DNA of 64,000 bases from Octopus sinensis (Eukaryota): positions 147,622,001-147,686,000 of the forward strand of contig NC_043000.1 of assembly GCF_006345805.1 (NCBI RefSeq). Reading direction: 5' to 3'. How positions within the stretch are numbered: the stretch's first letter is position 1; each line of letters opens with the position of its first letter. The position numbers and the translations under genes are program-made. Below the pieces are notes generated by a model. That model saw only the letters and a list, made by a program, of their open reading frames with translations, was not told where the DNA came from and did no database searches. Shown here one piece after another: positions 38,731 through 40,169 of the stretch.

Positions 38731-39272
38731 TATACCTTCCAAATCCACTCATAAAGCTTTGGTTGGCTCAGGGCTATTATAGAAAGCATTTGCCCAATTG
38801 TCTGTACAGTGGAGTTGCATAGTTTCCTCTTATGACAGGGATACATTTTACCTATTCTTAAAACTAATGTATGCCCATATACCTATATAGACATGTGTAA
38901 TAGGAAATTTGTTTCCCAACCACATGATTTCAAGTTCAATACCACAGCATGACTCCTTGGCAAGTGTCTTCAACTATAAGTCTTGTGAGTGGATTTGGTA
39001 CTTGGAAACTGAAAGAAGTCTGTTGTATCTTTCATTTCTTGGACTTGCAGTACATTGTGTCCTAGAACAAGTTACTTCAGTGAAATTTCTCTAGTCTACT
39101 CAATTGAAATTGAATACTGAGTGCTGGTGCAACTGCCTGTCTCCGTGTATCTTATTTTTGATGCTCTGCACCAGTAAAGAAAAGGCTAAAAGGTCTGTTC
39201 ATGATGTATGGTACTTCTTGGCTACTCAGACCTGCTTGCAAGTGACAGCTATGTTTTACACACATACACACA

Positions 39273-39420
39273 CCATCATCATCATCATTATTTAGCGTCC
39301 GTTTTCCATGCTAGCATGGGTTGGACGGTTTAACTGGGGTCTGTGAAGCCGGAAGGCTTCATCAGGCCCAGTCAGATTTGGCAGTGTTTCTACGGCTGGA
39401 TGCCCTTCCTAACGCCAACA
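39273..39420 (-). mobile_element. 3' part of (GAT)n-tailed SINE family B, fused to the 5S copy
   Basis: GTTGGCGTTAGGAAGGGCATCCAGCCGTAGAAAC...CATGGAAAACGGACGCTAAA(TGA)n, the same as the copy at 36966-37300. Confidence 0.85.
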
Positions 39421-39427
39421 TTGCGCT

Positions 39428-39539
39428 ATGCTTACTGCACCTAGGTTTCCCAAGCGGTCACCCATCTAAGTACTGACTAGGCTCGACGTTGCTTAACTGC
39501 GGTGATCAGACGAGAACCGGTGCTTTCAACGTGATATGG

Positions 39540-39540
<1 letters not shown>
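39428..39540 (-). rRNA. 5S rRNA-derived copy (retro-pseudogene or SINE head), first ~7 nt missing
   Basis: Minus strand reads GCCATATCACGTTGAAAGCACCGGTTCTCGTCTGATCACCGCAGTTAAGCAACGTCGAGCCTAGTCAGTACTTAGATGGGTGACCGCTTGGGAAACCTAGGTGCAGTAAGCAT, a mollusc-type 5S. No oligo-T terminator. Confidence 0.9.
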
Positions 39541-39588
<48 letters not shown>

Positions 39589-40169
39589 CATATGTTTTGC
39601 CACATGCAGGTATTAAAATAATACTATACGTCACTTTTGTGTATACATTTATGTATATGTATATGTGGATATATGTATGTATAGACATATATCCCCAACT
39701 GCTATCCCATCTCAACCTATATATAACTTTCCTTCCATACATTCTTGCATCCTCTTATCCTACCACCCTTCCCATTCTTCTGTCATTCCTTCTCTCTTCT
39801 ATTCACCTTGTACTTTAAGGGCTAACCTTGACACATTAATTCTCTCTCTAGCTCCATCCTAATTACTCTTACTATTGTGAGGCTACCATATATCTCTTCT
39901 ACAGCAAGAGGCATGTTCTTGCTCACACTGATGTGCATCACATACACACACGTGCATGCAAATAGTTCTTTTAATTTGTCTTCCAAATCCACTCATAAGG
40001 CTTTGGTTGGCTCAGGGCTATTATAGAAAGCATTTGCCCAATTGTCTATACATTGGAACTGCATAGTTTCCTCTCATGACAGGGATACATTTTACCTATT
40101 CTTAAAACTAATGTATGCCCATGTGTGTATATGTTATATACATCTTCATGCATGTAATATGTGTGAATA

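What the first reader, a model, noticed from the sequence alone, without database searches (positions are those of the whole stretch)
39273..39540. 5S rRNA fused to a SINE tail: candidate 5S-headed (SINE3-like) retroelement
Seen: on the minus strand a near-complete 5S rRNA with recognisable internal promoter boxes is followed, after a ~7-nt linker (AGCGCAA), by the 3' ~150 nt of SINE family B and its (TGA)n tail, with no TTTT terminator in between. Known: 5S-headed SINE3 elements exist in fish and some other animals, and LINE RT template switching makes snRNA/rRNA chimeras. Inference: this is either a member of a 5S-promoted SINE family that borrows the family-B tail for mobilisation, or a one-off template-switch chimera showing how such families arise. 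I do not know of a described cephalopod SINE3.
Basis: partly seen in the sequence, partly recalled or inferred. Interest (0 to 1): 0.75.

Follow-up and report, generated by a model that had tools for sequence, protein, structure and literature searches.

The report
One-off 5S–LINE chimera, not SINE3
This is a copy of an unprocessed 5S ribosomal RNA joined to the last 145 bases of a LINE retrotransposon; it is not an amplified SINE family but one of many different 5S and U6 fusions in this genome, each likely made anew when a reverse transcriptase jumped between RNAs.

Summary
The fusion is real, but both labels need correcting. The 'linker' is the 3' trailer of a 5S precursor, and the 'SINE B tail' is the 3' end of a single-ORF, RTE-like LINE (endonuclease plus reverse transcriptase). 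The junction occurs at only 2 loci genome-wide with up to 2 mismatches, and their tails are only 90% alike; the focal tail is 99% identical to stand-alone LINE copies. In a sample of 100 of 220 exact 5S matches, 91 are dispersed. Of these, 84 are fused in sense to LINE ends or full-length SINEs (77 by script; 0 antisense; background 1.2%). Junctions differ at 120 of 121 loci, and U6 does the same. So this is a young, independent retro-chimera, most likely made by template switching, of the kind described for U6 with L2, RTE and SINEs in platypus and lizard. It is not a SINE3 family. The scan had already noted this phenomenon at other places in this genome and in another genome. Dfam and Repbase could not be checked, and most of the ~1,200 5S-like matches were not examined.

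The parts
39429..39540 (-). 5S rRNA copy, nt 8-119 (first 7 nt missing), internal promoter region retained
   Evidence: Rfam RF00001 97.8 bits; alignment starts at nt 8; 98.2% to gene-like copy L197
39417..39428 (-).
   Evidence: same trailer after many dispersed copies and after a gene-like copy on C5
39417..39419 (-). 3-nt overlap that fits both the trailer and the LINE 3' UTR (junction microhomology)
   Evidence: read from the sequence against the trailer and the LINE
39274..39419 (-). last ~145 nt of an RTE-like LINE 3' UTR with (GAT)n tail, young subfamily
   Evidence: 99.3% to stand-alone copies; 98.7% to ORF-bearing copies L280 and L286, 94.5% to full-length L292
39541..39575 (.). (TA)n run at the 5' side; with the CA/TG repeats on both sides it is likely the target microsatellite; no TSD can be assigned
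   Evidence: TRF; flanks; TSD search
39180..39191 (-). first two T4 runs downstream, where a Pol III read-through transcript would end (inferred)

Best explanation
The locus is a single, young insertion of a 5S precursor copy fused to the 3' end of an RTE-like LINE, likely made when the LINE's reverse transcriptase switched templates during insertion. Inferred steps: the LINE protein primed on its own RNA at a microsatellite target, copied ~145 nt, jumped through a 3-nt overlap onto the 3' trailer of an unprocessed 5S transcript, and stopped 7 nt short of its 5' end. Shown: the parts, the near-unique junction, and that many independent fusions of this form exist. The copy has likely not spread further.
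For: The junction has 2 matches with up to 2 mismatches; those two tails are 90.4% alike, while the focal tail is 99.3% to stand-alone LINE ends. In that tree 9 5S-fused tails are interleaved with stand-alone ones (no support values read). 21 5S fusions to this LINE start at many points, from inside the ORF to ~52 nt from the end. Of 91 dispersed 5S copies (sample: 100 of 220 exact matches), 77 have a retroelement motif within 45 nt in sense, 0 in antisense; 0 of 9 gene-like copies and 35 of 3000 random window positions do; 84 of 91 with by-eye assignments. Post-5S sequences differ at 120 of 121 loci. Six units, two of them 5S+RTE, interrupt a host repeat whose halves are contiguous elsewhere. 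L004 has a 10-bp TSD with one mismatch. 20 of 26 non-array U6 copies viewed are fused the same way. Precedent: PMC4476161 (passages).
Against: No TSD or empty site could be shown for the focal locus itself. The short-TSD signal is weak: at least 3 nt in 25 of 66 versus 25.5% in permutations (1 of 1000 reached it); at least 5 nt not significant; 17 of 83 loci with microsatellite flanks were dropped. A 3-nt overlap is short. Template switching and RNA ligation cannot be told apart at this one locus. Breakpoints cluster (4 of 21 at the focal point), which a family would also give. 3 of 91 dispersed copies have no assignable partner.
Confidence: 0.8

Rival explanations
1. Same one-off chimera, but the RNAs were ligated first (RtcB-type: cyclic-phosphate 3' end to a 5'-OH LINE fragment) and the fused RNA was then reverse transcribed.
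For: Shown for human U6/L1 (PMC6789731, passages). The focal partner is 5'-truncated, and LINE breakpoints cluster at three points, as cleavage sites might.
Against: 45 of 91 partners are SINEs joined at their own 5' start, which as Pol III transcripts would bear a triphosphate (inferred); that end sharply lowered ligation by purified RtcB in PMC6789731, though extracts still gave products. Trailer lengths vary (strict prefix 4-16 nt). 5S is not normally cyclic-phosphate ended according to that paper.
Confidence: 0.13
2. Member or incipient master of a 5S-promoted SINE3 family that uses the RTE tail.
For: Internal promoter region and no terminator before the tail's end; 5S head + RTE tail SINEs exist (CoeSINE5, HaSE3; PMC5786205, passages); four chimeras share the LINE breakpoint and two share the whole junction.
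Against: Two loci, not 100 or more; different tail lineages; trailers come from different 5S genes; the LINE itself is far more abundant than the fusions; the +1 region and the upstream element seen before gene-like copies are absent.
Confidence: 0.04
3. Two separate insertions: a LINE fragment landed by chance just behind an existing 5S pseudogene.
For: No TSD at the focal site; LINE ends are very common.
Against: Adjacency 77 of 91, all sense, against 1.2% background; lone dispersed 5S copies are rare; units interrupt host repeats as one block.
Confidence: 0.03

Closest known systems
U6/L2, U6/Mon-1 (platypus) and U6/L1, L2, RTE, AnolisSINE2 (anole) chimeric pseudogenes; Doucet et al. 2015, PMC4476161 (passages seen)
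   Same: Small Pol III RNA in sense, 5' of a short non-L1 LINE or SINE end; independent events; very short TSDs; with stringent LINEs, small-RNA copies occur almost only as chimeras.
   Different: Here the RNA is 5S carrying its gene-specific precursor trailer, the host is an invertebrate (octopus-like, inferred), and about half of the partners are whole SINEs.
Human 5S/L1 chimeras; PMC11838501 (passages seen)
   Same: 5S fused to a LINE 3' end in one insertion; that paper says of U6/L1 chimeras that each is unique and does not propagate.
   Different: Human 5S segments are often antisense and truncated; here 0 of 91 antisense and mostly near full length with trailer.
SINE3 with RTE tails: CoeSINE5, HaSE3, SINE-1_Pmo; PMC5786205 (passages seen)
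   Same: 5S head plus RTE 3' end; template switch proposed as the origin.
   Different: Those are amplified families; this has no shared junction and no RTE 5'-UTR-derived body.
RTE-2_OV and the recently active RTE of Octopus; PMC9115989 (passages seen)
   Same: Single long ORF with endonuclease and RT.
   Different: Identity with the LINE here was not tested (1109 aa there, 1037 aa here).

Membership tests
SINE3 (5S-derived SINE) | Head with at least 60% identity to 5S over 60 nt | tested here: met
   Rfam 97.8 bits; criterion from SINEBase PMC3531059 (passage)
SINE3 (5S-derived SINE) | At least 100 interspersed copies of one structure | tested here: not met
   2 matches of the junction with up to 2 mismatches; 5 with a 0-30 nt gap pattern; 21 5S+RTE fusions seen, with different joints
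SINE3 (5S-derived SINE) | Copies descend from a master (shared junction and diagnostic changes) | tested here: not met
   120 distinct post-5S sequences in 121 loci; each of 9 fused tails is at least as close to a stand-alone tail as to another fused tail
SINE3 (5S-derived SINE) | Tail shared with a partner LINE | tested here: met
   16 of 16 ORF-bearing loci end in it
SINE3 (5S-derived SINE) | Pol III transcription of the element | not testable with these tools
   only assembled contigs were available
Small-RNA/LINE chimeric retrocopy | Small RNA 5' of a 5'-truncated LINE or SINE, in sense | tested here: met
Small-RNA/LINE chimeric retrocopy | RNA origin: ends at the RNA's ends, without the gene's upstream flank | tested here: met
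   dispersed copies start at or inside +1 with unrelated flanks; gene-like copies share an upstream motif
Small-RNA/LINE chimeric retrocopy | Single insertion (TSD or empty site around both parts) | tested here: inconclusive
   not shown for the focal locus; met for sister loci L050, L105, L004 and four others
RTE-clade LINE (partner) | One ORF with AP endonuclease and RT, short tandem-repeat tail | tested here: met
   1037-aa ORF, Exo_endo_phos + RVT_1; (GAT)n end
RTE-clade LINE (partner) | RT phylogeny places it in the RTE clade | not tested
   no reference set at hand; the label rests on architecture and recalled motifs

The most novel reading that the evidence does not exclude
This genome is a SINE3 nursery: its LINE reverse transcriptases keep capturing unprocessed 5S precursors, building hundreds of promoter-plus-tail units, and at least one of them (this young locus, or one among the ~1,100 5S-like matches not examined) is a transcribed master of a first cephalopod 5S-headed SINE family.
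Probability: 0.07. Interest if true: 0.65.

Novelty: new member of a known kind. Interest (0 to 1): 0.3.

Why it matters
The locus alone is ordinary retro-debris. The class has modest value: it shows the head-acquisition step proposed for SINE3 birth happening repeatedly in an invertebrate with non-L1 enzymes. The trailers identify which 5S genes were transcribed in the germ line. The joins at SINE 5' ends and the breakpoint clusters give a natural data set for telling template jumping from RNA ligation. I found no paper on these octopus fusions in the searches.

Tried and rejected
Orthologous empty site: contigs of four runs laid on 38900-39540 gave no spanning record; one related organism's contig covers the 3' flank and ends 6 letters past 39273; inconclusive. 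A second lay on sister locus L004 gave joints across the unit with sides of only 25-36 letters, most likely other copies of the host repeat; not counted as an orthologous test. RNA evidence: only contigs, mostly guessed to be RNA, with small shares; nothing on expression. Long-TSD test was dominated by microsatellite matches and replaced. In one search, 9 of 96 loci were flagged; I dropped L056 (self-match) and L173 and L182 (14-nt offsets). The script's 'gene' flag was corrected by eye at two loci (L112 out, second L044 copy in). The LINE 3' end folds no better than shuffles (z -0.58), so structure does not explain the breakpoint clusters on this test. The focal-versus-gene match line was off by one base and not used. 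No host gene was identified in the window (ARAGORN 0; ORFs of 120 aa or more look like repeat or LINE debris by eye, not scanned). The 30 loci were not examined, so more diverged 5S copies remain unsampled.

Full report
Observation. Rfam finds one 5S match in the window, 39429-39547 on the minus strand, 97.8 bits. Against a gene-like copy the homology starts at nt 8; a (TA)n run lies upstream. After the 5S come 12 nt, then ~145 nt of a repeat that ends in (GAT)n and has several other copies in the window. The first T4 run is ~85 nt beyond the tail. The window lies at G000:C4:147,622,001 in a 2.72-Gb genome. 'Octopus-like' is my inference from recalled repeat types and the scan's earlier notes, not a tool result.

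The linker. The 3' end of this 5S variant plus the first four trailer bases occurs at 44 exact places. Their continuations agree for a variable length (strict prefix 4-16 nt) and then diverge. One of the 44, on C5, has an upstream motif also seen before the clustered 5S genes on C4 and runs on into T tracts; it is 98.2% identical to the focal 5S. Its trailer differs at one base from the commonest form, so the exact source may be a paralogue or allele not seen. Other dispersed copies carry other trailers, several of which resemble those of other gene-like copies. The linker is therefore the 3' trailer of a 5S precursor; that the template was an unprocessed transcript is inferred.

The tail. Upstream of 23 young stand-alone copies lies either a tandem-unit 3' UTR or unrelated flank, never a SINE head. 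One continues into an RT frame (RVT_1). Full-length copies have a single 1037-aa ORF with Exo_endo_phos and RVT_1. All 16 ORF-bearing loci fetched end in this tail, two at 98.7% identity. The partner is a LINE 3' end. 'RTE-like' rests on architecture and recalled motifs; no tree was built.

Family or one-off. The junction pattern with up to 2 mismatches has 2 matches genome-wide; a looser pattern with a 0-30 nt gap has 5. The two share trailer length and breakpoint, but their tails are 90.4% alike, while the focal tail is 99.3% to stand-alone copies. Each of 9 fused tails is at least as close to a stand-alone tail as to another fused one. Among all loci held, 21 5S fusions map to this LINE, starting inside the ORF (2), in the 3' UTR, or in clusters at three points near the end (5, 4 and 5 loci). 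The clustering is against a fully random picture and is unexplained; the fold test gave no support for a structural cause.

The class. A 30-nt 5S pattern that ends before the 3' end has 220 exact matches; I examined the first 100 in contig order. Nine are gene-like and 91 dispersed (two flags corrected by eye). A motif screen finds a retroelement start or tail within 45 nt in sense at 77 of 91, in antisense at 0, upstream at 2 (sense) and 1 (antisense), after 0 of 9 genes, and at 35 of 3000 random window positions. With by-eye reading: 45 SINEs joined at their 5' start, 4 SINE 3' parts, 25 short tails of a second type (the commonest traced to another LINE), 10 this LINE, 4 two further putative repeats (not verified), 3 unassigned. 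The SINE labels are mine, from stand-alone copies, not from a library. Across both samples 120 of 121 post-5S sequences are distinct (one tandem duplicate merged). A 19-nt core with up to 2 mismatches has 1,236 matches (control 11), genes included; most were not examined. For U6, I viewed 29 of 48 top matches: 3 array genes, and of 26 others 20 are fused to the same partners (two duplicate pairs), one to this LINE's 3' UTR.

Single insertion. The focal site lies in a microsatellite and gives no TSD; laying contigs was inconclusive. For sister loci, 6 of 96 tested interrupt a host repeat whose halves are contiguous elsewhere with 0 to 5 nt overlap, two of them 5S+RTE units (three further flags dropped). 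L004 has a 10-bp TSD with one mismatch. Short TSDs are weakly enriched: at least 3 nt in 25 of 66, 1 of 1000 permutations; mean 19 of 1000; at least 5 nt not significant.

Mechanism. Most likely the LINE RT began on its own RNA, copied ~145 nt, switched through a 3-nt overlap to the trailer of a 5S precursor and stopped at nt 8 (inferred). RNA ligation is the rival: shown for human U6/L1, needing a cyclic phosphate and a 5'-OH (PMC6789731, passages). The many joins at SINE 5' starts and the variable trailers favour jumping for the class, but do not decide this locus.

Known relatives. Doucet et al. (PMC4476161, passages) describe U6 fused to L2, RTE and SINEs in platypus and anole, with short TSDs, and note that such LINEs give only chimeras. 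Human 5S/L1 chimeras are often antisense and truncated (PMC11838501, passages). SINE3 families with RTE tails exist (PMC5786205, passages). Kojima (PMC4494074, passages) argues that independent chimeras should be a minority beside many copies of the LINE, which is the case here. SINEBase asks for 100 copies (PMC3531059, passages). PMC4824008, PMC4758252 and PMC9115989 were seen as passages and, in those, mention no octopus 5S fusion. No supplements were read, and Dfam and Repbase were not available; a database entry could exist there. The scan's earlier notes reach the same reading at other loci; I had recorded mine before seeing them.

Verdict. Real feature, SINE3 family not supported, new member of a known kind. 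Interest 0.3.

Noticed in passing
dispersed full-length 5S copies (e.g. L035, L040, L045): 13 of 32 have a G just before +1 against 9% in the flank (p about 3e-6); gene-like copies do not. Possibly a non-templated base added by the RT.
   Followed up: partly
L204-L233: A second LINE (1,390 exact matches of its last 42 nt) is cut at nearly one point ~46 nt from its 3' end in about 21 of 30 stand-alone copies, read by eye; 5S and U6 join at that same point.
   Followed up: partly
L292:4617-4727: 5S fusion breakpoints on the RTE-like LINE cluster at three positions; unexplained.
   Followed up: partly
G000:C4:131.78-131.97 Mb and 135.79 Mb; C5:50.223 Mb: Clusters of gene-like 5S copies in mixed orientation with a shared upstream motif and differing trailers; two divergent variants face each other on C5.
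   Followed up: partly
L002:1459-1510 and L269: Fold-back (inverted) duplications of the small-RNA part beside 5S and U6 copies.
   Followed up: no
L184: A 5'-truncated 5S copy with an antisense LINE 3' end directly upstream and no partner downstream; resembles twin priming.
   Followed up: no
G000:C1:141.83-141.95 Mb: Tandem array of about 20 variant U6 genes.
   Followed up: no
window 38736-38878 and about 39980-40122: A ~140-bp local direct repeat, ~1.2 kb apart, brackets the chimera.
   Followed up: no
L292-L295: Several LINE copies with open frames over 1,000 aa suggest a recently active family.
   Followed up: partly
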